Shown here piece by piece: positions 1,781-63,975 of a stretch of 64,000 nt of DNA. The position numbers were made by a program, and so were the translations under genes. The stretch lies in assembly GCF_988242995.1 (NCBI RefSeq), contig NZ_OZ547043.1; one strand, 5' to 3'. Position 1 is the first letter of the stretch. The number at the start of each line of letters is the position of its first letter. The notes under the pieces were generated by a model. The model made no database searches and was not told where the DNA came from. It saw nothing but the letters and a program-made list of their open reading frames with translations.

Positions 1781-3580
<1,800 letters not shown>

Positions 3581-3777
3581 AAAGTATGATTATTGTGCCT
3601 TAATGCCCGGTTAACCAGGCTTTTAGAAGTCGCTGTTCTGAGCTTAACGTCTGTATTAATAGAAACGCCGCATTCTACACTACAACATTGAGGCGAGGAA
3701 ATGTTCATACCGTATGGATTGTGGTATCTGGAAACGTCCTCGCATTTGTTATGCAAAATGCAACAAAGCCAGTGAAA

Positions 3778-4257
3778 TCACTGGCTCGCGTCTTCCGAAG
3801 ATGTTTCAAATCGCACAAGGCCAGGCGGCAATGCCACGCTTAAGATGATCGGTTGCCATTCAGACCGGGCAGCAAACTTTCGAGAGCAGCCACGTGCAAT
3901 CAGGAATCCACCAACGCCACCGAGAATCGCACCGCATAATGCTGCAATATCTGAAGCAAAGAGTAGCTGAAATAGTGAAGCGATGAGGAATAATCCCACC
4001 AGCGGCGACATATAAACCAGTAATGCGGAGCTAAGCAGGCTGCCTTCGGCGATTCCTAATTCTACTTTTTGCCCCGGCACTAACGGCTCATCACAGGGTA
4101 CGACAATGGTATGCGTGGTTTGCGGGCCAAGTTTATTCAACACGCGGCTACCGCAACCGGCACGTGAAGCGCAGCTGCTGCATGAGGCTTTAACATCACA
4201 ACTAACCAGCGCCTGCCCGTTTTCCCAGGAGACGACGGTAGCCCACTCTTTGATCAT
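3778..4257 (-). CDS. rseC: Sigma-E regulatory protein RseC
   Basis: 159-aa ORF at the end of the rpoE-rseABC operon; start overlaps rseB stop. Confidence 0.88.
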   Translation of the reverse strand: MIKEWATVVSWENGQALVSCDVKASCSSCASRAGCGSRVLNKLGPQTTHTIVVPCDEPLVPGQKVELGIAEGSLLSSALLVYMSPLVGLFLIASLFQLLFASDIAALCGAILGGVGGFLIARGCSRKFAARSEWQPIILSVALPPGLVRFETSSEDASQ

Positions 4258-5210
4258 TGCGCTGCCCCGAACTTAATATTCTCGGCAATGCGTTTCGCCG
4301 TTTGCGGCGGCAGTTCACCGACAATGGTGATTTCGGCGTTATCACGTACGCTTGTACTGACGGTTCTGCGCCCGGTGCGCAACATCTGATCGGTGCTCGA
4401 TGGCGTAGCGCGGTTAACGTTTACCGAGAAGCTGAATAATCCGTCGGAATAGAGACGTGATTCGATAGGCATGTTGTCCATCGTCGGTAGCGGACGTCGA
4501 CTACTGGAAACTTCGCTAAAACCCTGTGGCAACCAGGTTGGCGTCCAGCTGAATTTAGCTTTTTCACCTACAGGAACAGAAAGCAACGGCGGCAAATTTG
4601 CCTTCGCCAGCGTCTGCATACTGCTGCTGATATCCTGATTGACATTAAAAGCAATCACGCGAAATTGTTCCAGCGTTTCACCATCGCGATCAAGGAGATC
4701 AACCCGCATCGGTAATTTCGATTCGGTGTCCATCCACACGATGTAGCTGTAGCGTGTACCATCTCGGGCAACCACACGAATGACTTCGCAAAGACGATCA
4801 GCAATACGCGTGCGCCCGACGGAGATAAAGTCGTAGTAAGGAGAAAGGCGTTTGAAATCGGTATAGATGAGCGATGGTAGAGAATCAACAATGTAATCGC
4901 CATTAAGCGTGAACGGTTCAAGTCCCGGTTCAAAATAGCTGATTTCATTGCCGCGCTGTACCACTTCCCGGCGCGGGCCATCCATTTGCAACAATTGTGC
5001 AAGAGGACGGTTATCGAGGCGTGCATGTCGATAACGCAGAGACTCAACACCCTGTTTATTGATGCTGATGAATGACAGCTCGTAATTCAGTGACTGACTG
5101 GCCAGGTTCATCTGCTGTAATAACGCCCCGGACGCGGGAGTGGCCGAGGCGTTAGCAGAGAATAACAGGCTACCTGTCACTAATGACATGGCAAACCAAA
5201 GTTGCTTCAT
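4254..5210 (-). CDS. rseB: Sigma-E regulatory protein RseB (periplasmic)
   Basis: 318-aa ORF with signal peptide, located between rseA and rseC. Confidence 0.9.
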   Translation of the reverse strand: MKQLWFAMSLVTGSLLFSANASATPASGALLQQMNLASQSLNYELSFISINKQGVESLRYRHARLDNRPLAQLLQMDGPRREVVQRGNEISYFEPGLEPFTLNGDYIVDSLPSLIYTDFKRLSPYYDFISVGRTRIADRLCEVIRVVARDGTRYSYIVWMDTESKLPMRVDLLDRDGETLEQFRVIAFNVNQDISSSMQTLAKANLPPLLSVPVGEKAKFSWTPTWLPQGFSEVSSSRRPLPTMDNMPIESRLYSDGLFSFSVNVNRATPSSTDQMLRTGRRTVSTSVRDNAEITIVGELPPQTAKRIAENIKFGAAQ

Positions 5211-22557: not shown

Positions 22558-22677
22558 ATGCCTGGCAGTTCCCTACTCTCGCATGGGGAGACCCCACACT
22601 ACCATCGGCGCTACGGCGTTTCACTTCTGAGTTCGGCATGGGGTCAGGTGGGACCACCGCGCTAAGGCCGCCAGGCA
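22558..22677 (-). rRNA. rrfG: 5S ribosomal RNA
   Basis: 120 nt; reverse complement matches the E. coli 5S sequence (TGCCTGGCGGCC...CTGCCAGGCAT). Confidence 0.97.
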
Positions 22678-22770
22678 AATTCTGTTTTATTAACCCGCTT
22701 GTCGCCGGTTAATTTAATCTGTATCAGGCTGAAAATCTTCTCTCATCCGCCAAAACATCTTCGGCGTTGT

Positions 22771-25675
<2,905 letters not shown>

Positions 25676-25868
25676 TCACAACCCGAAGATGTTTCTTTCG
25701 ATTCATCATCGTGTTGCGAAAATTTGAGAGACTCACGAACAACTTTCGTTGTTCAGTGTTTCAATTTTCAGCTTGATCCAGATTTTTAAAGAGCAAATAT
25801 CTCAAACATCACCCGAAGATGAGTTTTGAGATATTAAGGCAGGTGACTTTCACTCACAAACCAGCAAG

Positions 25869-25944
25869 TGGCGTCCCCTAGGGGATTCGAACCCCTGTTA
25901 CCGCCGTGAAAGGGCGGTGTCCTGGGCCTCTAGACGAAGGGGAC
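25869..25944 (-). tRNA. gltW: tRNA-Glu (UUC) in the 16S-23S spacer
   Basis: 76 nt; reverse complement is GTCCCCTTCGTCTAGAGGCCCAGGACACCGCCCTTTCACGGCGGTAACAGGGGTTCGAATCCCCTAGGGGACGCCA. Confidence 0.96.
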
Positions 25945-26038
25945 GTGTCAGTCTGCTTCGCAAGACGCCTTGCTTTTCACTTTCTATCAGACAATCTGTG
26001 TGAGCACTTCAAAGAACGCTTCTTTAAGGTAAGGAGGT

Positions 26039-27571
<1,533 letters not shown>

Positions 27572-28013: not shown

Positions 28014-30587
28014 TTACTGGACGGCGACAATCCGGTCTTCATTAACTTCCAGGCGAATAACTTTACCCGGAACCAATTCACCAGACAGTATTTGCTGTGC
28101 CAGCGGGTTTTCGATCTGCTGCTGGATAGCACGTTTCAGAGGACGTGCACCATAGACCGGATCGTAACCGTTCTCGCTCAGCAGTTTCAGCGCCTCGTCA
28201 GAAATGTGGATTTCATAACCACGTTCTTCCAGACGTTTGTACAGACGTTTCAACTGAATCTGCGCAATCGACGCAATGTGCTGTTCACCCAGCGGATGGA
28301 AGACCACCACTTCATCGATACGGTTAATGAATTCCGGACGGAAGTTATGGCTTACCACACCGAGCACCAGCTCTTTCATGTGCGCATAATCCAGTTCACC
28401 GAAGCGTTCCTGAATCAAATCGGAACCGAGGTTAGAGGTCATAATGACAACCGTATTACGGAAGTCGACCGTTCTCCCCTGCCCGTCAGTCAGACGCCCA
28501 TCATCCAGTACCTGCAACAGAATGTTGAAGACATCCGGATGCGCTTTTTCCACTTCATCCAGCAGGATGACGGAATACGGACGACGACGCACCGCTTCGG
28601 TCAGGTAGCCACCTTCTTCATAACCGACATATCCCGGAGGCGCACCAACCAGACGAGACACCGAGTGTTTCTCCATAAACTCGGACATATCGATACGGAC
28701 CATCGCCTCGTCGCTATCAAACATAAAGTTCGCCAGCGCCTTACAAAGCTCAGTTTTCCCCACACCCGTTGGGCCGAGGAACAGGAATGAACCAATCGGG
28801 CGATTTGGATCCGCCAGCCCCGCACGGCTACGACGAATAGCGTTAGATACCGCATCAACCGCTTCGTTCTGACCAATAACGCGATGGTGCAGCTCTTGCT
28901 CCATACGCAGCAGTTTTTCGCGCTCGCTTTCCATCATGCGAGAAACCGGAATCCCCGTCCAACGCGCCAGCACTTCAGCAATTTCGGCATCGGTCACTTT
29001 ATTACGCAACAGACGCATAGTTTTGCCTTCGAGCTGCGTTGCGGCTTCCAGTTGCTTTTCCAGTTCCGGGATTTTGCCGTATTGCAGTTCAGACATCCGC
29101 GCCAGGTCACCCACACGGCGAGCCTGTTCAATAGCGATTTTCGCCTGTTCCAGTTCCGCTTTAATGGTCTGTGTACCAGAAAGCGATGCTTTCTCTGCTT
29201 TCCACTCTTCTTCTAACTCGGAGTACTGACGTTCTTTGTCGCTCAGTTCTTCGTTGAGCATATCCAGGCGTTTTTTACTGGCTTCATCAGACTCTTTCAT
29301 TAACGCCTGTTGTTCCAGTTTAAGCTGGATGATACGACGATCGAGTCGGTCGAGTTCTTCTGGTTTTGAGTCGATCTGCATACGAATGCTGGATGCTGCT
29401 TCATCGATCAGGTCGATGGCTTTATCCGGCAGCTGACGGTCAGCAATGTAGCGATGAGACAACGTCGCCGCTGCAACAATTGCCGGGTCAGTAATTTGCA
29501 CATGGTGGTGCAATTCGTAACGTTCTTTCAGGCCACGCAGAATCGCAATGGTATCTTCAACAGAAGGCTCGGCAACAAACACTTTCTGGAAACGACGTTC
29601 CAGCGCAGCATCTTTTTCGATGTACTGGCGATATTCGTCAAGCGTCGTGGCACCTACGCAGTGCAATTCACCACGCGCCAGCGCCGGTTTCAGCATGTTT
29701 CCGGCGTCCATTGCGCCATCGGCTTTACCCGCGCCGACCATGGTATGTAATTCGTCGATAAACAGGATGACGTTGCCTTCCTGTTTGGCAAGATCGTTAA
29801 GCACGCCTTTTAAACGTTCTTCAAACTCACCGCGATATTTCGCCCCAGCCACCAGCGCGCCCATATCCAGCGCCAGTACGCGGCGGCCTTTCAACCCTTC
29901 CGGCACTTCGCCGTTGATAATACGCTGCGCCAGACCTTCAACGATGGCAGTTTTACCGACGCCGGGTTCACCAATCAGTACTGGGTTATTTTTAGTACGA
30001 CGTTGCAGCACCTGAATGGTACGGCGAATTTCTTCATCACGACCAATCACCGGATCGAGTTTGCCCTGTTCGGCTCGTTCGGTAAGGTCGATGGTATATT
30101 TTTTCAAAGCCTGACGTTGGTCTTCAGCACCTTGATCGTTCACGCTTTCACCTCCACGCATTTGTTCAATCGCTTGAGTAATGTTGGCGGTGGTCGCCCC
30201 TGCTGCTTTCAGGATGTCGGCCAGCGTGCCGCGAGACTCAAGTGCCGCCAGAACGAACAGTTCTGACGAGATAAAGTTATCACCACGTTTTTGCGCCAGC
30301 TTGTCGCAAAGATTAAGAACGCGCACCAGATCCTGTGATGGCTGGACATCACCACCAGTACCTTCAACCTGCGGTAAACGATTTAATGCCTGATTGATAT
30401 CTGTGCGCAACTGGCCAGCATTTATGCCAGCGGATGTTAATAAAGGACTAACCGAACCCCCTTCCTGATTCAGCAGGGCGCTCATTAAATGAAGTGGTTC
30501 GATGAATTGGTTGTCGTGCCCGAGTGCAAGTGATTGGGCATCGGCAAGAGCAAGCTGGAATTTATTAGTAAGACGATCCAGACGCAT
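28014..30587 (-). CDS. clpB: Chaperone ClpB (Hsp100 disaggregase)
   Basis: ORF track gives 861 aa; start trimmed to [11 protein letters not shown] (857 aa); two AAA+ modules each with Walker A ([16 protein letters not shown]). Confidence 0.95.
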
Positions 30588-30625
30588 AACTCCTCCCATA
30601 ACGGATCAAAGTTGCTACTGGAGAT

Positions 30626-30654
30626 TAAATGAGGTCATCCCTCAATTATTCAAG
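30626..30654 (-). promoter_or_regulatory. Sigma-32 heat-shock promoter of clpB
   Basis: Minus strand reads CTTGAA-N14-CCTCATTTA, matching the sigma-32 consensus (CTTGAAA / CCCCATnT). Confidence 0.7.
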
Positions 30655-30716
30655 GTTATTGACCAGATTAATGTGAAAAGAAAATCACGCGTACCGGATC
30701 GTCTTGATTCTTTAGG

Positions 30717-33909: not shown

Positions 33910-34012
33910 TCCTTTATATTGAGTGTATCGCCAACGCGCCTTCGGGCGCGTTTTTTGTTGACAGCGTGAAAACAGTACGGGTACTGTACTGAAGTCACTT
34001 AAGGAAACAAAC

Positions 34013-34060
34013 ATGAAACACACACCGTTTTTCTTCGCATTCTTTTTTACCTTCCCCTGA
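34013..34060 (+). CDS. pheL: pheA leader peptide
   Basis: 15-codon ORF MKHTPFFFAFFFTFP with 7 Phe codons, immediately upstream of the attenuator. Confidence 0.92.
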   Translation: MKHTPFFFAFFFTFP

Positions 34061-34106
34061 ATGGGAGGCGTTTCGTCGTGTGAAACAGAATGCGAAGACG
34101 AACAAT

Positions 34107-34138
34107 AAGGCCTCCCAAATCGGGGGGCCTTTTTTATT
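34107..34138 (+). terminator. pheA transcription attenuator (rho-independent terminator)
   Basis: Hairpin aaggcctcccaaatcggggggcctt followed by TTTTTATT between pheL and pheA. Confidence 0.85.
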
Positions 34139-52006: not shown

Positions 52007-52369
52007 GGGGCTGATTCTGGATTCGACGGGATTTGCGAAACCCAAGGTGCATGCCGAGGGGCGGTTGGCCTCGTAAAAAGCCGCAAAAAATAGTCGCAAA
52101 CGACGAAAACTACGCTTTAGCAGCTTAATAACCTGCTTAGAGCCCTCTCTCCCTAGCCTCCGCTCTTAGGACGGGGATCAAGAGAGGTCAAACCCAAAAG
52201 AGATCGCGTGGAAGCCCTGCCTGGGGTTGAAGCGTTAAAACTTAATCAGGCTAGTTTGTTAGTGGCGTGTCCGTCCGCAGCTGGCAAGCGAATGTAAAGA
52301 CTGACTAAGCATGTAGTACCGAGGATGTAGGAATTTCGGACGCGGGTTCAACTCCCGCCAGCTCCACCA
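52007..52369 (+). ncRNA. ssrA: tmRNA (SsrA / 10Sa RNA)
   Basis: 363 nt from GGGGCTGATTCTGGATTCGACGGG to ...CCCGCCAGCTCCACCA; contains the tag reading frame region; tRNA-like 3' end. Confidence 0.96.
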
Positions 52370-52483
52370 CTTGCTCTTCCGGATACGTCCGGAGAAATCC
52401 TGAAAGCCCGCATGGCGCAAGCCCTGTGGGCTTTTTTGTGTCTACCGTTGTCCGAGGATATCCAGCTGAGTCCAGTGATTATT

Positions 52484-52531
52484 GGTATACGTTTAGGTAT
52501 ACGGTAAGATGTATACCTAAATGCGTATACC
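52484..52531. promoter_or_regulatory. Repeat cluster at the int 5' end (GTATAC-containing repeats with an 11-bp inverted repeat); candidate Int arm-type sites or int operator
   Basis: TTTAGGTATAC-N8-GTATACCTAAA perfect inverted repeat (about 52492-52521) abutting the ATG at 52521, plus two more GGTATAC/CGTATACC copies. Confidence 0.45.
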
Positions 52532-53753
52532 AATTCATGAAGGAACGGCCAAAGTGGCAAGAACGACACGTCCCCTGACCAACACTGAAGTTCTGCGCGC
52601 TAAAGCGTTAGAAAAGGATCTAACGTTGCATGATGGCGATGGCCTTTTTCTGCTCGTTAAAACGAACGGTAAGAAATTATGGCGTTTCCGCTACCAAAAG
52701 CCAGTAACAAAACAGCGGACCATGATTAGTTTAGGAACCTTCCCTGCACTATCCTTGGCTGAAATCAGAAATGTGCGAGCTAAGTATCTTTCCTTGTTAG
52801 CCAAGGGGATCGATCCACAAACACACAATGAACAAGTCACACAACAACAACAAATTGCAGTAGAAAGTATTTTTTCAAACGTTGCTAAAAATTGGTTTGC
52901 CATTAAACGCAATAGCGTTACACCTGATTATGCAAAGGATATATGGCGATCCTTAGAGAAGGACATTTTCCCTGCTATCGGAGAGATTCCTGTTCAGGAA
53001 ATAAAAGCACGTATATTAATTGAAGCCCTAGAACCAATTAAGGCCCGCGGTGCACTCGAGACTGTTCGTCGTTTGGTGCAACGTATTAACGAAATTATGA
53101 TCTACGCTGTCAATACCGGATTAATTGAGGCTAATCCTGCGTCAGGTATTGGCATGGCTTTTGATAAACCCAAAAAGCAAAATTTGCCAACGCTGCGGCC
53201 AGAAGAATTACCTAAACTGATGCATTCTCTAGTAATGTCAAACCTGTCTATTCCTACTCGTTGTCTGATCGAATGGCAACTACTGACACTCGTTCGCCCT
53301 TCAGAAGCCTCTGGCGCCCGCTGGGATGAGATCGATTTAGAATCCAAACTTTGGAGAATTCCTGCTGAAAGGATGAAAGCAAAGCGCGAACATATAGTTC
53401 CTTTATCATCTCAAGCTTTAATTATTCTTGAAGTAATGAAACCCATAAGTGCTCATCGTGAACATATATTTCCTAGCAGGAATAACCCTCAAGAACCGAT
53501 GAATAGCCAAACAGCAAATGCAGCATTAAAACGCATAGGGTACGGAGGAAAGTTAGTTGCACATGGACTCCGTTCTATTGCCAGCACTGCATTAAATGAA
53601 GCCGAATTTAATTCTGACATTATTGAATCAGCTCTTGCACATGTTGATAAAAATGAGGTGAGAAGAGCATATAACCGCTCCACTTATCTTGATAAACGTA
53701 AAGAGATGATGGCTTGGTGGGGAAATTTTATATATAAAAATAATTCATTATAA
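52521..53753 (+). CDS. int: Tyrosine recombinase (phage integrase, P4/CP4-57 family)
   Basis: 410-aa ORF with C-terminal catalytic region (HGLRSIAST...LAHVD...RRAYNRSTYLDKR); real start may be the downstream GTG (about 52551, reading VARTTRPLT). Confidence 0.88.
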   Translation: MRIPIHEGTAKVARTTRPLTNTEVLRAKALEKDLTLHDGDGLFLLVKTNGKKLWRFRYQKPVTKQRTMISLGTFPALSLAEIRNVRAKYLSLLAKGIDPQTHNEQVTQQQQIAVESIFSNVAKNWFAIKRNSVTPDYAKDIWRSLEKDIFPAIGEIPVQEIKARILIEALEPIKARGALETVRRLVQRINEIMIYAVNTGLIEANPASGIGMAFDKPKKQNLPTLRPEELPKLMHSLVMSNLSIPTRCLIEWQLLTLVRPSEASGARWDEIDLESKLWRIPAERMKAKREHIVPLSSQALIILEVMKPISAHREHIFPSRNNPQEPMNSQTANAALKRIGYGGKLVAHGLRSIASTALNEAEFNSDIIESALAHVDKNEVRRAYNRSTYLDKRKEMMAWWGNFIYKNNSL

Positions 53754-53764
53754 AAGGTATTACA

Positions 53765-54799
53765 ATGAATATTGATTCTATAAAACTTCATTTACAAAAT
53801 TTTTTCACAAATAATCCAACTGTTCTTATCGGTTCTGGCCTCTCTCTCGGTGAGGGGATTCCAGGTATGAAAACATTGGGAGAACATCTTAATACAACTA
53901 TCCCCAAATTAGTAAGCGGGGATCTTATAAGAGAATGGGGTATCATAAGTTCCAAACTAAATAATGGTATGGGACTTGAAGATGCCATGGCATTTCTTAA
54001 AGATGAAAGTGAACTTATCCCATTAATTATTCAGCACACCGCAGATCTTATTTTAAAGCATGAAAATACTGTAATATGCTCTGTAATCAATGGAGAAAAA
54101 AATCTAGCATTTACATCTTTATTGAATCACTTAACTTTTAATCAAAATGAATTGATAATTATAACTCCAAACTATGATAGACTAATTGAAATAGCATGTG
54201 AAATTGCTGGTCTAGAAATTTCAACAGGATTTATCAATAGTTATCATTGTATAAATAATCCTGAAGTTGAGTTAGATAAATTCAAAATCACCCACTCTAT
54301 CAAAACCACACGAGGTAAATCTACAGTTCAAATTAGAACTAAAAAACACGTTAAAATATTTAAACCTCATGGTAGTCTTGATTGGTTCAAGGCTGACGAT
54401 AAAATTATCAGGACCAGCTTTCAAAATAAACATAAAAGATTAATTATTACACCAGGTACAAGTAAATTCAGAGCTGGATATCAGCAGCCTTTTGATTGGC
54501 ATAGAGAAAAAGCAAACCATTATATCAAAAGAGCAAAATCACTATTAATTATTGGCTATGGGTTTAATGATGAGCAGTTAGAAGTACATTTGAAATCAAA
54601 AATACGTGAAAAAATACCTGTTTTATTAATGACATATGAATTGACATCAAACGCTCAAAAAATATGTGATGATAATCCTTCTATAACATATGTTATTGCA
54701 GAAGGAAACAATTCCATCGTTTGTATCGATGGCATTAAATATAAAATCGAAAAGAATATTTGGTCTTTAAATGAGTTTGTTAAAGAGGTACTTAAATAA
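53765..54799 (+). CDS. SIR2-like NAD+-binding protein (predicted NADase effector); cargo gene 1
   Basis: 344-aa ORF. Gly-rich NAD-binding loop VLIGSGLSLGEG, TPNYD motif (catalytic Asn codon 54170-54172), KPHGS motif (His codon 54367-54369) and second Rossmann motif IIGYGFND. Low GC; stop overlaps next gene's start (TAATG). Confidence 0.8.
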   Translation: MNIDSIKLHLQNFFTNNPTVLIGSGLSLGEGIPGMKTLGEHLNTTIPKLVSGDLIREWGIISSKLNNGMGLEDAMAFLKDESELIPLIIQHTADLILKHENTVICSVINGEKNLAFTSLLNHLTFNQNELIIITPNYDRLIEIACEIAGLEISTGFINSYHCINNPEVELDKFKITHSIKTTRGKSTVQIRTKKHVKIFKPHGSLDWFKADDKIIRTSFQNKHKRLIITPGTSKFRAGYQQPFDWHREKANHYIKRAKSLLIIGYGFNDEQLEVHLKSKIREKIPVLLMTYELTSNAQKICDDNPSITYVIAEGNNSIVCIDGIKYKIEKNIWSLNEFVKEVLK

Positions 54800-56583
54800 T
54801 GGAATATTACGTCATTAACACTGATGAAACATGCTTTATCGGACGAATCGCAAATGTTGATACCGATCGTGCTATTATCATTTCAGAGTCTCCAGAGATC
54901 ATACAAGAACTAACCGTTTTTGACTTGGTTGCTATTGAAGGCAATACCCCCACAGAGTTTCTTGTTGGTATCATTGAAAAAGTAAAACGCTCTATTGGAG
55001 AAATACAAACTATTGATACTGAAGAAAATATTGAAGATGACAGTGAAAAAGATTTCGATAATATCTTCCAAACTTATTCTATCGATCATGATATTCTTCA
55101 AGTAGCTCTTATCGGCACTTTCTGGGAGGTTTACGGGGATAGAAGGAAAATTTTTAAAAGAGGAGCACAATATTTTCCAAAAGTTGAAAAACAAGCATTT
55201 CTTATAAAAAAAGACAGTCTTGAGAAATTAATGTCGGCAGTCGACAATGATACTCCTGATGAGCTAAAACTCATACTAGGCAACTATGGAAATACCAATT
55301 CACGAGCAGTTGCAAATGGGGATAAATTATTTCAGAGACATGCTGCCCTATTGGGGAGTACTGGTTCAGGTAAAAGTTGGACAGTTGCGTCATTACTAGA
55401 ACAAGCCTCAAAATTAAAATACAACAATATTGTACTTTATGATCTTCATGGTGAATACAAAACTTTATCTGATACACATAATAAATCGAACCGCCCGAGC
55501 ATAGCCGATTATTTTAAAATTGCAAGCCCAGGAAATATCGACGATGTAAATAGTATTTATGTACCTCATTGGTTATTAAACAAAGAAGAAATGCTATCAC
55601 TGTTGTTAGATAGAAGCGATAGCAATGCACCTAATCAGGCAGCAAGATTTAGCTACCACGTGAGAGAGCTAAAAAAAGAATACATCACACACAACAGATT
55701 AATACACTTAGAAGATTGTTTGACTGTTGATGCTCCAATACCCTACTCTATCGAGGATCTTATTAGCAGACTGCACGATGATGATCAAGGTATGAAAAAA
55801 GGTACTAATAATAAAGAAATAAAAGGTGATTGGAATGGAAAACTAACAAGATTCATAAGCAGGTTAAGAACAAAAGTAGACGACAAGAGGAACTGTTTTC
55901 TATTCTCAAATAAACCAGAACACAACCAATATGATTGGTTGGAGAAATACGCTTGTAAAATTTTAAAATCAGATAGCACAGATCATGGCATTAAAATAAT
56001 TGATTTTTCTGAAGTTCCTTCAGATATTATGCCTATTGTTATTGGTGTATTGACCAGATTTTTATACAACGTCCAATTTTGGAGATGTGAGACCGAACGA
56101 ACCCCTATAGCATTCGTTTGTGACGAAGCTCATATTTATTTACCCGCTAAGGATACCACTGAGGCTGAAACAAAAATATCCTTATCAATATTCGAGAAAA
56201 TTGCTAAAGAAGGCAGAAAGTACGGAGTATCTTTATTAGTCGTCAGCCAAAGACCTTCTGATGTTAGCAGAACAATACTAAGTCAATGTAATAACATAAT
56301 TTCTCTCAGACTAAGTAATTATAGAGATCAACAGGTAGTTAGTCGGTTAATGCCTGATTCATTGAGTTCATTAACATCCATACTACCAATTCTTGATACT
56401 GGGGAAGCAATAGTTCTTGGCGACTCTGTTCTATTACCAGCTAGAATAAAATTGAATCCACCAACACTCAAGCCCGATAGCGCAACCAGAGCTTTTTGGA
56501 ATGAGTGGGGGGCAATTGAAGCAAAAGAAATCTCTATAGCAAATGCTGTTGAATCACTCAGGAGACAATCTCGTAATCGCTAA
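54799..56583 (+). CDS. HerA/FtsK-type ATPase; cargo gene 2
   Basis: 594-aa ORF. Walker A GSTGSGKS (Lys codon 55372-55374), Walker B FVCDEAH (56122-56133), and KEGRKYGVSLLVVSQRP arginine-finger region typical of HerA. Translationally coupled to the SIR2-like gene. Confidence 0.8.
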   Translation: MEYYVINTDETCFIGRIANVDTDRAIIISESPEIIQELTVFDLVAIEGNTPTEFLVGIIEKVKRSIGEIQTIDTEENIEDDSEKDFDNIFQTYSIDHDILQVALIGTFWEVYGDRRKIFKRGAQYFPKVEKQAFLIKKDSLEKLMSAVDNDTPDELKLILGNYGNTNSRAVANGDKLFQRHAALLGSTGSGKSWTVASLLEQASKLKYNNIVLYDLHGEYKTLSDTHNKSNRPSIADYFKIASPGNIDDVNSIYVPHWLLNKEEMLSLLLDRSDSNAPNQAARFSYHVRELKKEYITHNRLIHLEDCLTVDAPIPYSIEDLISRLHDDDQGMKKGTNNKEIKGDWNGKLTRFISRLRTKVDDKRNCFLFSNKPEHNQYDWLEKYACKILKSDSTDHGIKIIDFSEVPSDIMPIVIGVLTRFLYNVQFWRCETERTPIAFVCDEAHIYLPAKDTTEAETKISLSIFEKIAKEGRKYGVSLLVVSQRPSDVSRTILSQCNNIISLRLSNYRDQQVVSRLMPDSLSSLTSILPILDTGEAIVLGDSVLLPARIKLNPPTLKPDSATRAFWNEWGAIEAKEISIANAVESLRRQSRNR

Positions 56584-56608
56584 TAAAAATATTATCTAGC
56601 AACGCGCA

Positions 56609-56627
56609 GTGCTTTCCCCGCCTCGCC
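56609..56627 (-). other. P2/P4-type cos site (19-nt cohesive end sequence)
   Basis: Window reads GTGCTTTCCCCGCCTCGCC, the exact reverse complement of the P2/P4 cohesive end GGCGAGGCGGGGAAAGCAC as recalled; flanked by GC-rich dyads. Confidence 0.8.
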
Positions 56628-56791
56628 CGCCCGCTTTGCGGGGCGGTTTCAGTGCAGTTGCACTGACACGCTCAGGCCGCGCCGGGAATGGCGCGGTCTG
56701 CAGAAAATGAGGCAGGAAAACGCATGCAAAGCCATGCACCTTATCGATGCATGGCTTTTTTCAGTAAAAACGGGCGGATTTTCGGGGAATT

Positions 56792-57364
56792 TTACACAGA
56801 CTGATGTGATGCCAGTTGCGCACTTTTACGCGAAAAAATCATGTTCTGCGCAGGAGTGAATTTTTCACGGCTGTCATCCACCGAAGCCGCGTCAGGCCTG
56901 AATCCGATGGTCGTTAAAATGTCGCTATCCTGTGCGGAATAATTAATTTTTTCACCCTTCGCAAGCCAGGACTGGAGGGCTTCACGCAGGGCATCTGTGG
57001 CACGCTGTATGGCACAGTTTCGGGCAATGGCCGTCAGCTCACTGTAGCCCATCAGCTCCGGTGCCAGTGCCGCCGCCAGTGCTGTGCCGTGCTGCTGCAT
57101 AAAATCATTCAGCCGGTCGCGGATGCTGATGTGCTGAACGGCTTCATGCGAACGAATATAACGACCGGCGGCCTGATTCACCTGCCATTTTCTGACTTCG
57201 ATAATATTGCGTAATTCGTCCAGGCGACTGACGTTTCTGCCTTCTCCTGACAGAAGCCGCAGGTATTCCTGTTCGGCCGCTGCCAGCTCATTTTTGCGTT
57301 GCAGCCATGCTGCTTTGTTATTCTGACAGGTGTCAAAGGCCTGCTGTAAGGCTGTGCTTTCCAT
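56792..57364 (-). CDS. psu: P4 Psu-like protein (polarity suppression / capsid decoration)
   Basis: 190-aa ORF, the same length as P4 Psu, in the conserved psu-delta-sid order next to cos. Confidence 0.75.
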   Translation of the reverse strand: MESTALQQAFDTCQNNKAAWLQRKNELAAAEQEYLRLLSGEGRNVSRLDELRNIIEVRKWQVNQAAGRYIRSHEAVQHISIRDRLNDFMQQHGTALAAALAPELMGYSELTAIARNCAIQRATDALREALQSWLAKGEKINYSAQDSDILTTIGFRPDAASVDDSREKFTPAQNMIFSRKSAQLASHQSV

Positions 57365-57437: not shown

Positions 57438-57938
57438 TCATTCCAGACGCAGCGAATATGATTGTGTTTTTAACCGTACTGGCGGCAGTTCCTGTTTTTC
57501 ATGCAGGCGTTCTGCCAGTTCGTCCGGCGTGACCGGGCGGACAATGAAACGGTTGATGGTCTGAAGCGTTTTAAACACCAGACCACAGCCCGGATCCGTG
57601 CACACATAAAAACGCTCGGTGACTTCCTGAGACAGACGCCGCGATGTTCTTGACAGTGCAAGGCCTTTACATCTCCGACAACAATATCCGGTAACAAGCA
57701 TTCTTTTCGGCCGTTTCATACTGCCGGAGGCTGACGTCAGTGAATCGCGGTATCTCTGTTTGCCTGAAATGTATTCCATTCCTGAATCTTTACAGTCAGA
57801 GAAAAAGCTTTCACTCGCTTCAAATGTCGCAGAGCAATAAATATTCCGGCACTGTGCAATCATTATCTTGGTGCCATCGTCCATGAAATGTGCGCGACGG
57901 GTGTGAGCAACATGTCCACACGACGGGCAGTAAATCAT
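57438..57938 (-). CDS. delta: P4 Delta-like late-gene activator (tandem Ogr-type zinc fingers)
   Basis: 166-aa ORF with two C-x2-C...C-x4-C zinc-finger units (MIYCPSCGHVAH...CRNIYC and YCCRRCKG...CTDPGC). Confidence 0.85.
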   Translation of the reverse strand: MIYCPSCGHVAHTRRAHFMDDGTKIMIAQCRNIYCSATFEASESFFSDCKDSGMEYISGKQRYRDSLTSASGSMKRPKRMLVTGYCCRRCKGLALSRTSRRLSQEVTERFYVCTDPGCGLVFKTLQTINRFIVRPVTPDELAERLHEKQELPPVRLKTQSYSLRLE

Positions 57939-58669
57939 GACAGCAGCCCTCTGGCCTTAAGCTCTGCTCCCTGCTGGTCTATTTTGTCCTGCCACACCTT
58001 GCGCTGTGCCGGTGTGCCTGCCACCTCATAATCCATGTGCGGGAGTGTTGCCGCTGACAGTCCGGCCAGCCGGAGAACCGGCTCGCCGGTGAGGCTGATT
58101 TGCATCTGTTTTATTTTCTGTTCCAGCGATGATTTCACCTGCTGCATGACAGCCTTTTCCGGCGCGACGTAGCCCTGATGGCCGGTGGTGTTGGCGAGCG
58201 GATTTTCCTGTACCAGGATGCTCAGATGCATTGCCCGGACAAGCGCCTCACAGGTTTCATTCAGGGCGTGTTCCAGCTCATGCTCTGCATACAGACTCAG
58301 CAGGTGATGATGTGCCTTCCGGTAGGCGGTGGCCGTGCTGTCACACGCCCCTTTCAGGCGTTCACATTCAAAATTCAGCACCACGGCCAGATTGTCATAT
58401 TCCTGTACCAGCTCCCGGCGTGCCACGCGCTCAATGTGGCGCTGTTTCAGCTCATCGCTCAGGACACCACCGGCTGCACGAAAGGCCGTGCGCCAGTCGT
58501 CAGCGTCGTTTCCGTCGGCCTGCGTCAGCGCATTTTTTTCCTGCTCTGCCCGTTCAATGGCCGTGATGGTCTCATCCATCAGGCGGGCGTTCTCAAGATG
58601 AGCGGCTCTGGCCTTTTCCAGTTGTGCCAGCGCGGGTTGCAGATATTCAGGGATGGTGTTGTCAGACAT
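57935..58669 (-). CDS. sid: P4 Sid-like external scaffold (capsid size determination) protein
   Basis: ORF track gives 266 aa; start trimmed to MSDNTIPEYLQPALAQLEK (244 aa, the P4 Sid length) with RBS; coiled-coil-rich. Confidence 0.75.
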   Translation of the reverse strand: MSDNTIPEYLQPALAQLEKARAAHLENARLMDETITAIERAEQEKNALTQADGNDADDWRTAFRAAGGVLSDELKQRHIERVARRELVQEYDNLAVVLNFECERLKGACDSTATAYRKAHHHLLSLYAEHELEHALNETCEALVRAMHLSILVQENPLANTTGHQGYVAPEKAVMQQVKSSLEQKIKQMQISLTGEPVLRLAGLSAATLPHMDYEVAGTPAQRKVWQDKIDQQGAELKARGLLS

Positions 58670-58703
58670 TTTCCGGCTCCTCGTCACTTCAGGTTGAGAA
58701 AAT

Positions 58704-58759
58704 TGTGACGTACACCGGACAACAACACGACGCATTGCAGATGTGCCAGCCCTGACACA
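58704..58759. promoter_or_regulatory. Two TGT-N12-ACA dyads; candidate Delta/Ogr activator sites for the divergent late promoters (Psid / PLL)
   Basis: TGTgacgtacaccggACA (58704-58721) and TGTgccagccctgacACA (58742-58759) match the P2/P4 late-promoter activator element TGT-N12-ACA. Confidence 0.55.
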
Positions 58760-59488: not shown

Positions 59489-60084
59489 TGATGCCCGCTC
59501 TGCAAAAAGTCCCTTTTTCTGGCTTGCCTTTTTCCGGCATTTGCGGATATAGTTTTTCCGCTGCCGCAAAATCGGCAGCCGGGCGTGGAAACCCGAGTAT
59601 GTTATCGGCGACATATGACGCGCCATGCGTCTTTTTTTGTGTCGCAATCAACGCCACAGAGCGCCAGATTATGGTGTGGTGTGTGGTCAGTCGAGCAAAT
59701 GGCACTCCGTGCATTCTGCCCGCGTCCGCTCATTATACCGCAGAGTCAATGGTAGCTCAGGCGGGGCAGCCTCCGCGCTGGCCGGTTTCCGATAACGCCG
59801 GTATTTCCACCCCCGTCTGGGCTATCGCCATCGAGCGTGGAAACTCCGGCGATAGCGTCATTTACGCTGTTATCGGAGGTTGCCTTATGGCTACGACCCT
59901 TATCCCCTCACACCCTGAATTTGTCTTTGTGTTTGCGGCTGTCCGTCGCGCAGACCGTCATCCCCGTATCTGTATGCTTCGCACCGTCGCCGGTGATGAA
60001 CGCAGCGCCCGCCGTTCCCTTGTCCGTGACTATGTGCTCTCCCTTGCTGCCCGTCTGCCGGTGGTGGAGGTGTCCCGTGCGTAA
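59485..60084 (+). CDS. Hypothetical protein, P4 orf199-like (coding status uncertain)
   Basis: 214-aa ORF trimmed to an internal Met to give 199 aa; Ala/Pro-rich and GC-rich, so it could instead overlie the RNA-based immunity locus. Confidence 0.35.
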
Positions 60085-61282: not shown

Positions 61283-63616
61283 ATGAAAATGAACGTAACC
61301 GCCACCGTCAGCCATGCGCTCGGCCACTGGCCGCGTATTCTCCCGGCGCTGGGGATTCAGGTGCTGAAGAACCATCATCAGCCCTGTCCGGTCTGTGGCG
61401 GGAGTGACCGCTTCCGTTTTGATGACAGGGAGGGGCGCGGCACCTGGTACTGCAATCAGTGTGGTGCCGGTGACGGCCTGAAACTGGTTGAAAAGGTGTT
61501 TGGTGTCTCCCCGTCCGACGCGGCCGCAAAGGTGGCTGCCGTGACCGGCAGTCTGCCCCCGGCTGACCCGGCAGTGACGGCTGCCGCCGTTGCTGAAACA
61601 GACGCTGCCCGGAAGAACGCCGCCGCACTGGTACAAACCCTGATGGCAAAAACCCGTCCCGGAACCGGTAACGCCTACCTGACCCGCAAGGGCTTTCCCG
61701 GCCGGGAATGCCGGATGCTGACCGGCACACACAGAGCCGGTGGCGTGAGCTGGCGCGCCGGTGACCTTGTGGTGCCACTGTATGACGACAGCGGCGAACT
61801 GGTTAACCTTCAGTTAATCAGTGCTGACGGCCGTAAGCGCACCCTGAAAGGCGGACAGGTCAGGGGCACCTGTCACACCCTTGAAGGACAGAATCAGGCC
61901 GGAAAACGTCTGTGGATAGCGGAGGGATACGCGACCGCACTTACCGTGCATCACCTGACCGGTGAAACGGTGATGGTGGCGCTTTCTTCCGTGAATCTCC
62001 TTTCTCTGGCCAGCCTTGCCCGGCAGAAGCATCCGGCCTGTCAGATTGTCCTTGCTGCTGACCGTGACCTCAGCGGTGACGGCCAGAAAAAAGCCGCCGC
62101 AGCCGCAGATGCGTGTGAAGGTGTTGTTGCCCTGCCGCCGGTCTTCGGTGACTGGAATGATGCCTTCACGCAGTACGGCGGGGAAGCCACCCGTAAGGCC
62201 ATTTATGATGCCATCCGGCCACCGGCTGAAAGCCCGTTCGACACCATGAGCGAAGCGGAGTTTTCCGCCATGAGTACCAGCGAAAAGGCCATGCGTATCT
62301 ATGAGCATTACGGCGAGGCGCTCGCGGTCGATGCCAACGGCCAGCTTCTGTCCCGCTATGAAAATGGTGTCTGGAAGGTGCTGCCGCCACAGGACTTTGC
62401 CCGGGATGTGGCCGGGCTGTTTCAGCGTCTGCGAGCGCCGTTCTCCTCCGGGAAGGTGGCCTCCGTGGTGGACACCCTGAAGCTGATTATTCCGCAGCAG
62501 GAAGCCCCCTCCCGCCGCCTGATTGGCTTTCGTAACGGCGTGCTCGACACGCAGAACGGCACGTTCCACCCGCACAGTCCGTCACACTGGATGCGCACCC
62601 TGTGCGATGTGGATTTCACCCCGCCGGTGGACGGTGAAACGCTGGAAACCCACGCCCCCGCCTTCTGGCGCTGGCTTGACCGTGCCGCCGGTGGCCGTGC
62701 GGAAAAACGCGACGTGATTCTGGCTGCACTGTTTATGGTGCTGGCAAACCGCTACGACTGGCAGCTCTTTCTGGAGGTGACCGGTCCCGGCGGCAGCGGC
62801 AAAAGTATCATGGCCGAAATCGCCACCCTGCTGGCCGGGGAGGATAACGCCACGTCGGCCACCATCGAGACGCTGGAATCCCCGCGTGAACGTGCCGCGT
62901 TAACTGGCTTCTCACTGATACGCCTGCCGGATCAGGAAAAATGGAGCGGCGACGGTGCCGGACTCAAGGCCATCACCGGCGGCGATGCGGTGTCCGTTGA
63001 CCCGAAATACCGGGATGCGTACTCCACGCACATCCCGGCGGTGATTCTGGCCGTGAACAATAACCCGATGCGCTTCACCGACCGCAGCGGCGGCGTGTCA
63101 CGCCGGCGGGTGATTATTCACTTCCCGGAACAGATAGCCCCGCAGGAGCGCGACCCGCAGCTTAAGGACAAAATCACCCGCGAGCTGGCGGTCATCGTGC
63201 GTCACCTGATGCAGAAGTTCAGCGACCCGATGCTCGCCCGGTCACTGCTTCAGTCCCAGCAGAACTCAGACGAGGCACTGAACATCAAACGGGATGCCGA
63301 CCCGACGTTTGATTTTATCGGCTATCTGGAAACCCTGCCGCAGACCAGCGGCATGTATATGGGGAACGCCAGTATCATCCCGCGTAATTACCGTAAATAC
63401 CTCTATCACGCCTATCTGGCCTACATGGAGGCAAACGGCTACCGGAATGTACTCAGTCTGAAAATGTTCGGACTGGGGCTGCCGGTGATGCTGAAAGAAT
63501 ACGGGCTGAATTACGAGAAGCGCCATACCAAACAGGGGATACAGACCAACCTGACGCTGAAAGAAGAAAGCTACGGCGACTGGCTGCCAAAATGTGACGA
63601 CCCTGCAACAGCCTGA
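61283..63616 (+). CDS. alpha: P4 alpha-type replication protein (zinc-finger primase - TOPRIM - helicase - ori-binding)
   Basis: 777-aa ORF (P4 alpha length). N-terminal zinc finger CPVCGGSDRFRF...WYCNQCG, TOPRIM-like acidic patch (AADRD), helicase Walker A (TGPGGSGKS). Confidence 0.88.
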   Translation: MKMNVTATVSHALGHWPRILPALGIQVLKNHHQPCPVCGGSDRFRFDDREGRGTWYCNQCGAGDGLKLVEKVFGVSPSDAAAKVAAVTGSLPPADPAVTAAAVAETDAARKNAAALVQTLMAKTRPGTGNAYLTRKGFPGRECRMLTGTHRAGGVSWRAGDLVVPLYDDSGELVNLQLISADGRKRTLKGGQVRGTCHTLEGQNQAGKRLWIAEGYATALTVHHLTGETVMVALSSVNLLSLASLARQKHPACQIVLAADRDLSGDGQKKAAAAADACEGVVALPPVFGDWNDAFTQYGGEATRKAIYDAIRPPAESPFDTMSEAEFSAMSTSEKAMRIYEHYGEALAVDANGQLLSRYENGVWKVLPPQDFARDVAGLFQRLRAPFSSGKVASVVDTLKLIIPQQEAPSRRLIGFRNGVLDTQNGTFHPHSPSHWMRTLCDVDFTPPVDGETLETHAPAFWRWLDRAAGGRAEKRDVILAALFMVLANRYDWQLFLEVTGPGGSGKSIMAEIATLLAGEDNATSATIETLESPRERAALTGFSLIRLPDQEKWSGDGAGLKAITGGDAVSVDPKYRDAYSTHIPAVILAVNNNPMRFTDRSGGVSRRRVIIHFPEQIAPQERDPQLKDKITRELAVIVRHLMQKFSDPMLARSLLQSQQNSDEALNIKRDADPTFDFIGYLETLPQTSGMYMGNASIIPRNYRKYLYHAYLAYMEANGYRNVLSLKMFGLGLPVMLKEYGLNYEKRHTKQGIQTNLTLKEESYGDWLPKCDDPATA

Positions 63617-63649: not shown

Positions 63650-63975
63650 TCCCTGAATCCCCCGAAGGTGAACAATCCAGTGTTCACCCTTCACCGTATA
63701 TTCACCCGTTATCACACTGAAATTAAAAGAGAAAAACGAAAGGTGAACAGTGTGAACAATCAAATCAAAAAAAACTTTTTTTCTTCCTGTGTGATTTTCA
63801 GCACGGGAAATTAATCCCCTGCACAAGTCACACCGGCAGAATGCCGGAGGTGAAGAATCGAATGTTCACCCTTCACCCATTATTCACCACCTATCACTCT
63901 GAAATAAAAGGAGAAAACAGAAAGGTGAACAGTGTGAACAGTTCTTTCGAAAAAAAATTTTTTTCCTGTACGATA
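63650..63975. repeat. crr-like cis replication region: two direct repeats of about 130 bp, period about 185 bp, each carrying TGTTCACC/GGTGAACA iterons
   Basis: Repeat 1 (about 63660-63790) and repeat 2 (about 63845-63970) align nearly base for base (ggtgaacaatccagtgttcaccc... versus ggtgaagaatcgaatgttcaccc...); located just 3' of alpha. Confidence 0.75.

What the first reader, a model, noticed from the sequence alone, without database searches (positions are those of the whole stretch)
53765..56583. Two-gene SIR2-like / HerA-like ATPase operon carried as cargo: candidate anti-phage defense system
Two translationally coupled ORFs (TAATG overlap at 54797-54801) sit between the satellite integrase and its cos site. 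The first (344 aa) has the hallmarks of a SIR2 NAD+-binding/NADase fold: Gly-rich loop LIGSGLS, TPNYD with the catalytic Asn, KPHGS with the catalytic His, and IIGYGFND. The second (594 aa) is a HerA/FtsK-type ATPase: Walker A GSTGSGKS, Walker B FVCDEAH, arginine-finger region KEGRKYGVSLLVVSQRP. Neither gene belongs to the K-12 core, and GC content is far lower than the flanking DNA. A SIR2 effector with a HerA ATPase would be expected to act by NAD+ depletion (abortive infection). The pairing resembles the published SIR2-HerA class; whether this is a divergent member or something new needs a search.
Basis: partly seen in the sequence, partly recalled or inferred. Interest (0 to 1): 0.9.

Follow-up and report, generated by a model that had tools for sequence, protein, structure and literature searches.

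The report
Known SIR2-HerA defence pair in P4 satellite
The two genes are a real but already catalogued SIR2-HerA ("Nezha") anti-phage system, sitting in the known defence-gene slot of a P4-like phage satellite inserted next to the E. coli tmRNA gene, so the finding is correct but ordinary.

Summary
Two overlapping ORFs (53765-54799, 344 aa; 54799-56583, 594 aa) carry all the quoted motifs and have 34% GC against 51-55% in the flanks. They lie between a P4-type integrase and an exact P2/P4 cos 19-mer.

ORF1 matches PADLOC SIR2 models over its full length (1e-124). Its AlphaFold model has, as its 38 best PDB neighbours, only SIR2 subunits of solved SIR2-HerA complexes. N136 and H202 align with the catalytic N226 and H287 of S. 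aureus Sir2. ORF2 matches PADLOC HerA (9e-210) and solved defence HerAs (1e-67).

Six diverged homologue pairs from other phyla keep the same SIR2-then-HerA arrangement on mobile elements or in defence islands.

The HerA is identical to WP_021516369. That accession is listed as "SIR2_2 + DUF87" P4-hotspot cargo in Rousset et al. 2022, which names SIR2+HerA as a known system of that hotspot.

This subclade is divergent. It falls below the NCBIfam equivalog cut-offs, its HerA is closest to DUF4297-partnered HerAs and lacks the C-terminal arm, and I found no experimental test of it. It is rare: 1 of 5426 complete E. coli genomes.

The likely mechanism, inferred from relatives, is HerA-activated NAD+ depletion. 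Interest is low.

The parts
52007..52369 (+). ssrA (tmRNA), the chromosomal landmark next to which the satellite is inserted
   Evidence: ARAGORN reports a tmRNA with tag ANDENYALAA. Rfam tmRNA scores 295.8 bits. RefSeq annotates it in the near-identical locus L001.
52481..52503 (+). Candidate att core (ATTGGTATACG.TTAGGTATACG). The second copy lies just past the window end.
   Evidence: In L001 the two 11-mers recur about 11.5 kb downstream, equivalent to window position ~64032. This is tentative.
52521..53753 (+). P4-type tyrosine integrase (RefSeq starts it at 52554)
   Evidence: NCBIfam PRK09692 integrase domain, 2.6e-179, above its cut-off. Annotated in L001.
53765..54799 (+). SIR2-family NADase effector (344 aa), with predicted catalytic residues N136, D138 and H202
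   Evidence: PADLOC SIR2 PDLC04082, 1e-124, residues 1-343. Pfam SIR2_2, 9.6e-11. The AF2 model has pLDDT 87.8, and its top 38 PDB neighbours are all SIR2 subunits of SIR2-HerA complexes. N136 and H202 align to SaSir2 N226 and H287. They are invariant in 31 homologues.
54799..56583 (+). HerA-type ATPase/helicase (594 aa), with Walker A K192 and Walker B D442/E443. It is identical to WP_021516369.1.
   Evidence: PADLOC HerA PDLC04105, 9.3e-210. Pfam DUF87, 1.2e-29. PDB 9c1m HerA, 1.4e-67. The Foldseek top hits are defence HerAs aligned over their full length. There are 0 differences from the L001 protein.
56609..56627 (-). cos cohesive-end 19-mer of P2/P4 type
   Evidence: Exact match to GGCGAGGCGGGGAAAGCAC, with 0.03 matches expected by chance. 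The identity of the 19-mer comes from memory.
56792..57364 (-). psu (polarity suppression / capsid decoration protein)
   Evidence: RefSeq 'phage polarity suppression protein' at the equivalent position in L001.
57438..57938 (-). delta (Ogr/Delta zinc-finger activator)
   Evidence: RefSeq 'ogr/Delta-like zinc finger family protein'. NCBIfam PRK09678, 7.7e-23, below its cut-off.
57935..58735 (-). sid-like capsid size determination gene. RefSeq calls it 'glycoprotein 3' and uses a shorter start.
   Evidence: Position and annotation in L001. The assignment to sid rests on its place in the P4 gene order and is an inference.
59547..59832 (+). P4-type immunity region: a1b1 targets, isrK and C4 antisense RNA
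   Evidence: Rfam c4-a1b1 51.5 bits, isrK 74.7 bits and C4 70.4 bits, all above their gathering scores.
61283..63616 (+). alpha-like primase-helicase of the satellite
   Evidence: ORF of 777 aa. RefSeq 'primase-helicase zinc-binding domain-containing protein' in L001.
63662..63965 (+). Two ~122-nt direct repeats rich in TGTTCACC/GGTGAACA octamers, resembling the P4 crr
   Evidence: the repeat finder family D1: 82% identity, start-to-start spacing 182. The sequence was read. The link to the P4 crr comes from memory.

Best explanation
The two genes form a SIR2-HerA (Nezha / Gao_Her_SIR type) anti-phage defence system. It is carried in the variable defence hotspot, between int and cos, of a P4-like phage satellite integrated beside ssrA in E. 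coli.

The following mechanism is inferred from characterised relatives and was not shown here. The two proteins are made from one transcript with coupled translation. SIR2 forms a double-ring oligomer that is auto-inhibited on its own. A HerA hexamer docks its N-terminal beta-barrels into the SIR2 ring. In the complex, the SIR2 NADase (N136/D138/H202) and the HerA ATPase/helicase (K192, D442/E443) become active. On phage infection, cellular NAD+ is hydrolysed to ADPR and nicotinamide. Phage replication stalls and the infected cell stops growing (abortive infection). DNA unwinding and nicking may contribute.

The satellite benefits because it protects its host, and so itself, from phages that compete with its helper. 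The signal that links infection to activation is not known for any SIR2-HerA system.
For: Shown here:
- Both proteins give full-length PADLOC defence-model matches (SIR2 1e-124, HerA 9.3e-210).
- The family profile A1 finds, as its three best PDB hits, the SIR2 subunits of the three solved SIR2-HerA systems (S. aureus 1.2e-18, E. coli 2e-13, Paenibacillus 1.8e-7).
- The AF2 model (pLDDT 87.8, pTM 0.86) has only SIR2-HerA SIR2 chains among its 38 best Foldseek hits. KomC, ThsA and DSR2 follow.
- N136 and H202 align with the catalytic N226 and H287 of SaSir2. N136, D138 and H202 are invariant across 31 homologues of 36-75% identity.
- HerA matches solved defence HerAs (1.4e-67 to 2.3e-33), with Walker A and Walker B conserved. 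Its model aligns over its full length to them.
- The SIR2-then-HerA pairing is conserved in 6 of 6 diverged homologues examined: Vibrio, Paeniclostridium, Sorangium, Nitrospirota, Manganitrophus and Serratia. These sit on a Tn7-like transposon, on plasmids, or next to a type I RM system.
- The context is a P4-like satellite: int, cos, psu, delta, sid, C4 RNA and primase.
- Related satellites at the same site carry different cargo in the same slot.

From the literature:
- SIR2+HerA is listed as a known system in the P4 hotspot, and the identical HerA accession appears in that paper's table.
- HerA-dependent NADase activation, the 12:6 or 14:6 complexes, and loss of defence in catalytic mutants are reported in PMC11514289, PMC11472057 and PMC11559045.
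Against: - No experiment was done here, and I found no experimental test of this subclade.
- SIR2 shares only 14-19% identity with the solved SIR2 subunits.
- Both proteins score far below the NCBIfam equivalog cut-offs: SIR2_antiphage 38 bits against 500, and HerA_antiphage_2 289 bits against 850.
- The HerA lacks the ~120-aa C-terminal arm of Paenibacillus HerA (594 aa against 696 aa). It is closest to HerAs that partner a DUF4297 nuclease rather than SIR2. Stoichiometry and regulation could therefore differ.
- T225 of SaSir2, a ribose-contacting residue, is P135 here.
- No promoter or terminator signal above chance was found. The gene starts 11 nt after the int stop codon, so expression is unverified.
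Confidence: 0.85

Rival explanations
1. It is a SIR2-HerA defence system, but protection comes mainly from HerA-driven DNA unwinding, nuclease action on phage DNA, or ATP consumption. NAD+ depletion would be secondary.
For: SIR2-HerA complexes from Paenibacillus and E. coli show ATPase, helicase and ssDNA nuclease activities in vitro. This HerA is closest to the HerAs of the nuclease-based DUF4297-HerA systems.
Against: In tested systems, single NADase active-site mutations abolish defence, and a phage escapes by regenerating NAD+. The NADase triad is invariant in this subclade.
Confidence: 0.1
2. The pair serves the satellite's own life cycle or its conflict with its helper phage, for example by interfering with P2-like helpers or rival satellites, rather than giving general anti-phage defence.
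For: It sits in the slot that canonical P4 uses for gop/beta/cII (from memory). Satellites do carry helper-directed functions. The system is rare and low in GC, so it was acquired recently.
Against: The same gene pair occurs on Tn7-like transposons, on plasmids and in chromosomal defence islands with no satellite present. Its function therefore does not depend on P4 biology. Rousset et al. treat the slot as a general defence hotspot.
Confidence: 0.04
3. It is a decayed or non-functional relic, or a housekeeping HerA with a DNA-repair role like HerA-NurA.
For: There is no promoter signal above chance. HerA also matches archaeal repair HerAs, though weakly (NF040937, 5.1e-33).
Against: Both ORFs are intact and all invariant family residues are retained. 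The HerA is 100% identical, and the SIR2 differs at 2 residues, from the copy in another strain. There is no NurA partner. The mobile and defence-island context argues against a housekeeping role.
Confidence: 0.01

Closest known systems
SIR2-HerA of Paenibacillus sp. 453MF (PDB 8w9l/8wld/8wiv; PMC11472057; the paper cites Garb et al. 2022 for SIR2-dependent NAD+ depletion)
   Same: It is a two-gene SIR2-then-HerA system. PsSIR2 chains are the top Foldseek hits for the SIR2 model (3.8e-13, TM 0.62-0.63). PsHerA matches at 4.7e-56 by sequence and 26-28% identity in the structural alignment. The N-x-D...H catalytic motif is shared (N163/D165/H212 in PsSIR2, N136/D138/H202 here). The HerA order of beta-barrel, RecA-like domain and inserted helical bundle fits the secondary structure of the model.
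   Different: SIR2 is only 14-15% identical, and only a profile search finds it (1.8e-7). HerA here is 594 aa against 696 aa and has no counterpart of the C-terminal arm domain (residues 576-696) that stabilises the split-spiral hexamer.
E. coli NCTC 11129 SIR2-HerA, 'Nezha' (Gao et al. 2020; PDB 8j4u, 8su9 and related entries)
   Same: It has the same architecture and host species and the same family of SIR2 fold (Foldseek 7.8e-13, TM up to 0.66). The profile match is 2e-13.
   Different: SIR2 there is 415 aa against 344 aa here. The single-sequence match is only 1.1e-5 and partial. HerA is 18-19% identical in the structural alignment and 2.3e-33 by sequence, more distant than the DUF4297-type HerAs.
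S. aureus Sir2-HerA (PDB 8yhx; PMC11514289)
   Same: It gives the best sequence match for SIR2 (1.1e-10 single sequence, 1.2e-18 profile). Catalytic N226 and H287 align to N136 and H202.
   Different: SaSir2 is 428 aa. HerA matches at only 1.8e-24. T225 of SaSir2 is P135 here.
DUF4297-HerA defence systems (PDB 9c1m, 8xau, 8ziq)
   Same: Their HerA subunits are the closest solved relatives of ORF2 by sequence (1.4e-67, 3.1e-58, 1.3e-56) and by fold (1.0e-35). They are of similar length (571-617 aa). NCBIfam HerA_antiphage_2 and PADLOC PDLC02188 also outscore the other anti-phage HerA models (NF042943, PDLC02185), but those outputs do not say which partner each model belongs to.
   Different: The effector partner there is a Cap4-like DUF4297 nuclease. 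Here it is a SIR2 NADase.
P4 satellite defence hotspot (Rousset et al. 2022, PMC9122126)
   Same: The slot between int and cos/psu is the same. The same HerA accession, WP_021516369, is listed with SIR2_2 + DUF87. SIR2+HerA is named as a known system found there. The tmRNA locus is a known integration hotspot for P4-like satellites.
   Different: Nothing material differs. The SIR2 here differs by 2 residues from WP_021516368. I found no sign in the searched parts of the paper's supplement that this pair was among the 18 systems cloned and tested.

Membership tests
SIR2-HerA (Nezha / Gao_Her_SIR) anti-phage system | Two adjacent, co-oriented genes, SIR2 followed by HerA, forming one operon | tested here: met
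   ORF1 and ORF2 are on the + strand with a TAATG stop/start overlap. The same order was seen in 6 of 6 diverged homologues.
SIR2-HerA (Nezha / Gao_Her_SIR) anti-phage system | The effector has the SIR2 (PF13289-type) fold of the HerA-associated clade | tested here: met
   Pfam SIR2_2, 9.6e-11. PADLOC SIR2, 1e-124. The AF2 model's top 38 PDB hits are all SIR2 chains of SIR2-HerA complexes. The three best profile hits are the same three systems.
SIR2-HerA (Nezha / Gao_Her_SIR) anti-phage system | Catalytic Asn and His of the NADase site (SaSir2 N226/H287; PsSIR2 N163/D165/H212) | tested here: met
   N136 and H202 align to N226 and H287. N136, D138 and H202 are invariant in 31 homologues.
SIR2-HerA (Nezha / Gao_Her_SIR) anti-phage system | The partner is a HerA-type ATPase: N-terminal beta-barrel, a RecA-like core with Walker A and B, and an inserted helical bundle | tested here: met
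   DUF87, 1.2e-29. Solved defence HerAs match at 1.4e-67. GSTGSGKS and CDEAH are invariant. The AF2 model (pLDDT 69, moderate) has a beta-rich N-terminus and helices across 262-388, and it aligns over its full length to the HerAs of the defence complexes.
SIR2-HerA (Nezha / Gao_Her_SIR) anti-phage system | Passes curated family thresholds | tested here: inconclusive
   The PADLOC models match over the full length with very strong E-values. The NCBIfam equivalogs SIR2_antiphage (38 bits against a cut-off of 500), HerA_antiphage (185 against 800) and HerA_antiphage_2 (289 against 850) are not reached. The pair is therefore a member of the broad family but not an equivalog of those narrower NCBIfam families.
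SIR2-HerA (Nezha / Gao_Her_SIR) anti-phage system | SIR2 12- or 14-mer with a HerA hexamer in a supramolecular complex; HerA-dependent activation of the NADase | not testable with these tools
   Known for the Sa, Ec and Ps systems. No multimer prediction or biochemistry was available here.
SIR2-HerA (Nezha / Gao_Her_SIR) anti-phage system | Protects against phage, with NAD+ depletion on infection | not testable with these tools
   This needs an experiment. It has been shown for relatives.
P4-like satellite defence hotspot cargo | Located between the P4-type integrase and cos/psu of an element with delta, sid, C4 RNA immunity and an alpha primase, where related elements carry variable cargo | tested here: met
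   establish the element. The same slot holds an ABC-three-component system in strain 5132 and an unrelated SIR2-HerA pair in strain P15-385. The literature agrees.
DUF4297-HerA defence system | The HerA partner is a DUF4297 (Cap4-like) nuclease | tested here: not met
   The partner is a SIR2 protein. Only the HerA subunit resembles this family.
HerA-NurA DNA end-resection machinery | An adjacent NurA nuclease (with Mre11/Rad50), in a housekeeping context | tested here: not met
   There is no NurA gene. The neighbours are an integrase and cos. Repair HerA models score far below the defence HerA models.

The most novel reading that the evidence does not exclude
This pair may represent a mechanistically distinct, experimentally untouched subclade of SIR2-HerA. 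It combines a compact ~345-aa SIR2 with an arm-less ~590-aa HerA whose nearest solved relatives partner the DUF4297 nuclease. On this reading, one HerA 'chassis' has exchanged effectors (SIR2 for DUF4297), and the complex could differ from the solved 12:6 and 14:6 assemblies in stoichiometry, auto-inhibition or phage trigger.
Probability: 0.2. Interest if true: 0.4.

Novelty: already known. Interest (0 to 1): 0.2.

Why it matters
It matters little beyond annotation. The result confirms that sequence reading alone recovered a genuine defence system and its mobile carrier. It also adds one example of the known rule that P4-like satellites swap defence cargo at a fixed slot.

Some modest value remains. 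This subclade is widespread: about 2000 proteins at E <= 1e-5, across many phyla. It is rare in E. coli (1 of 5426 complete genomes). I found no experimental test of it. Its HerA links the SIR2-type and DUF4297-type systems, so it would be a reasonable choice for studying how HerA chassis exchange effectors and what signal activates them. That signal is still open for the whole family.

Tried and rejected
- Promoter and terminator scan of 52300-56900: 18 promoter-like sites against 15.5 expected, 5 terminator-like sites against 2.9 expected, and none placed convincingly. This says nothing about expression.
- tblastn of SIR2 against 50,697 phage records: no match. The pair is not known from sequenced phage genomes in that collection.
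- Full-text search for WP_021516368 and WP_021516369 found nothing in main texts. The HerA accession was found only in the supplement of Rousset et al..
- The 2026 preprint on P2/P4 hotspots does not mention HerA, SIR2 or Nezha in its main text.
- A search for attR inside the window found nothing. The likely repeat lies about 30 nt beyond the window end, judging from L001.
- I considered filing the system as DUF4297-HerA because of the HerA similarity. I rejected this because the partner is SIR2.
- I considered HerA-NurA repair and rejected it: there is no NurA, and the context is mobile.
- I considered that V. cholerae Nezha might be a tested close relative. Its active-site numbering (N168/H227) gives a different spacing from N136/H202, and I could not obtain its sequence, so this is unresolved.
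- The single-sequence PDB search did not find PsSIR2. A profile search and a fold search were needed.
Full report
**Observation**

The region contains two + strand ORFs, 53765-54799 (344 aa) and 54799-56583 (594 aa). The first stop and the second start share a base: TAATG at 54797-54801, preceded by an AGAGG Shine-Dalgarno-like sequence. GC is 33.8% across the pair, 41% in the integrase, and 51-55% in the flanks.

**Context**

- Upstream lie smpB and the tmRNA gene at 52007-52369.
- Next comes a P4-type tyrosine integrase at 52521-53753 (NCBIfam PRK09692, 2.6e-179).
- Twenty-six bases after the HerA stop lies an exact copy of GGCGAGGCGGGGAAAGCAC at 56609-56627. I recalled this 19-mer as the P2/P4 cohesive end. 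Only 0.03 matches are expected by chance.
- After that come psu, delta and sid homologues on the minus strand. These are named in the RefSeq annotation of a 99.8% identical locus in E. coli EC21GDE043.
- The element continues with the P4-type immunity RNAs (C4, a1b1 targets, isrK) and a 777-aa primase-helicase.

The pair is therefore the cargo between int and cos of a P4-like satellite inserted beside ssrA.

**ORF1 is a SIR2 of the HerA-associated clade**

- PADLOC's SIR2 model PDLC04082 matches residues 1-343 at 1e-124. Pfam SIR2_2 matches at 9.6e-11.
- I built a 31-sequence alignment of homologues with 36-75% identity. It gave an AlphaFold model with mean pLDDT 87.8 and pTM 0.86.
- In a Foldseek search of the PDB, the first 38 hits are all SIR2 subunits of solved SIR2-HerA complexes: Paenibacillus 8wld/8w9l, E. 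coli 8sub/8j4u 'Nezha', and S. aureus 8yhx. E-values start at 3.8e-13, TM-scores are 0.47-0.66, and identity is 12-19%. Only after these come KomC, ThsA and DSR2.
- A profile search of PDB sequences returns the same three systems as the top three hits: 1.2e-18, 2e-13 and 1.8e-7.
- N136 and H202 align with N226 and H287 of SaSir2. Those are the residues reported as catalytic.
- N136, D138 and H202 correspond to the N-x-D...H set N163/D165/H212 of PsSIR2. They are invariant across the 31 homologues.

**ORF2 is a defence-type HerA**

- PADLOC HerA PDLC04105 matches at 9.3e-210 over residues 5-592. Pfam DUF87 matches at 1.2e-29.
- Among solved structures, the best sequence matches are the HerA subunits of three DUF4297-HerA systems: 9c1m at 1.4e-67, 8xau at 3.1e-58 and 8ziq at 1.3e-56.
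- Next are Paenibacillus SIR2-HerA HerA (8wiv, 4.7e-56), E. coli Nezha HerA (2.3e-33) and S. aureus HerA (1.8e-24).
- An AF2 model from a shallow 7-sequence alignment has only moderate confidence (pLDDT 69, pTM 0.71). It gives the same ranking with full-length alignments.
- Walker A (GSTGSGKS, K192) and Walker B (CDEAH, D442/E443) are invariant.
- The protein ends at residue 594. It has no counterpart of the C-terminal arm (residues 576-696) described for PsHerA.

**The pairing is conserved**

Diverged SIR2 homologues (30-51% identity) all have a ~580-590-aa DUF87 protein immediately downstream, often with overlapping stop and start codons:
- Vibrio parahaemolyticus, as cargo of a Tn7-like transposon.
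- Paeniclostridium sordellii.
- Sorangium.
- A Nitrospirota MAG, beside a type I RM system and a HEPN/NTase pair.
- A Manganitrophus plasmid.
- A Serratia plasmid.

That is 6 of 6. A Klebsiella plasmid also carries a HerA at 43% identity with a SIR2 gene upstream. The family is large, with 2015 proteins at E <= 1e-5.

**The slot behaves as a hotspot**

Related P4-like satellites at ssrA have integrases 78-80% identical to this one. In strain 5132 the same position holds an ABC-three-component system. In strain P15-385 it holds a different SIR2-HerA pair, of 371 and 590 aa. The SIR2 of that pair is barely alignable with this one (26% over 90 residues). The HerAs match only around the ATPase motifs.

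**What is already known**

- Rousset et al. 2022 (PMC9122126) describe this P4 hotspot and name 'SIR2 + HerA (Gao et al., 2020)' among the known systems found in it.
- Their supplementary table lists 'SIR2_2 + DUF87' with WP_021516369 at least three times.
- The window's HerA has 0 differences from WP_021516369.1. Its SIR2 differs at 2 residues from WP_021516368.1.
- Hochhauser et al. 2023 record the tmRNA locus as a defence-island hotspot used by P4-like satellites.

The system, its class and its carrier have therefore all been catalogued. I found no sign that this particular pair, or any close relative, has been tested experimentally.

**Mechanism (inferred)**

For the Sa, Ec and Ps systems, the following is reported. 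SIR2 alone is auto-inhibited. HerA inserts its N-terminal barrels into the SIR2 ring. The complex (12:6 or 14:6) gains NADase, ATPase, helicase and ssDNA nuclease activities. Catalytic mutants of either protein lose defence. In V. cholerae, Nezha blocks three phages, N168A or H227A abolishes this, and one phage escapes by regenerating NAD+.

The fold is conserved, the catalytic residues are invariant and the operon structure is kept. I therefore assign the same mechanism here with about 0.75 confidence for NAD+ depletion being the main effect. Confidence in the family assignment is about 0.9. I found no phage trigger reported in the papers I read.

**How this member differs**

- The SIR2 is compact: 344 aa against 381-428 aa for the solved SIR2 subunits.
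- It is roughly equally distant from all three solved SIR2 subunits.
- The HerA lacks the arm and is closest to DUF4297-partnered HerAs.
- Both proteins fall far below the NCBIfam equivalog cut-offs.
- The pair occurs in only 1 of 5426 complete E. coli genomes.

These points make it a divergent subclade within a known family, not a new kind of system.

**Verdict**

Novelty is 'already known' and interest is low (0.2). The most novel reading still open is that this subclade differs in assembly or trigger and reflects effector exchange on a shared HerA chassis. I give that a probability of about 0.2, with moderate interest if true.

Noticed in passing
window 63662-63965: Two ~122-nt direct repeats (82% identical, start-to-start spacing 182) lie just downstream of the satellite primase. 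They are dense in TGTTCACC/GGTGAACA octamers. From memory, this matches the P4 crr (cis replication region) with its alpha-protein iterons.
   Followed up: partly
window 59547-59832: Rfam finds the P4-type immunity RNA set (c4-a1b1 targets, isrK, C4 antisense RNA), all above gathering score. The satellite's immunity region therefore looks intact.
   Followed up: partly
L014 8236-11111 (E. coli P15-385): A related P4-like satellite at ssrA, with an integrase 80% identical, carries a second and deeply divergent SIR2 (371 aa) + HerA (590 aa) pair in the same slot. Two SIR2-HerA subtypes thus occupy one hotspot.
   Followed up: partly
L010 1-6761 (Klebsiella pneumoniae plasmid pZZ41-KPC): A homologous SIR2+HerA pair (HerA 43% identical) sits between DUF499 and hypothetical genes on one side and a DUF1156 gene on the other, all co-oriented. 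It may be part of a larger methylase-associated system. PADLOC's 'mad8' model also hit the window HerA at 3e-22.
   Followed up: no
L002/L003 1-8813 (Vibrio parahaemolyticus): The homologous SIR2-HerA pair (51% identical SIR2) lies directly beside TnsA/TniB/TniQ genes, so it is likely cargo of a Tn7-like transposon.
   Followed up: no
window 52370-52520 and L001 22333-22355: The candidate att core (ATTGGTATACG.TTAGGTATACG) lies downstream of the ssrA terminator rather than inside ssrA. The matching right-end copy falls about 30 nt beyond the window end.
   Followed up: partly
window 52521-53753: The integrase has intermediate GC (41%) and is as rare as the cargo: only one complete E. coli genome has it at >=99% identity, and the others are at 76-81%. 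Integrase and cargo may have arrived together as one module.
   Followed up: partly
window 22560-27571: A complete rRNA operon (5S, 23S, tRNA, 16S) lies on the minus strand. Other standard E. coli RNA elements are present elsewhere (rncO 464-678, AsrC 3462-4293, Phe leader 34012-34137, RyfD 30568-30706). This is ordinary chromosomal background.
   Followed up: no
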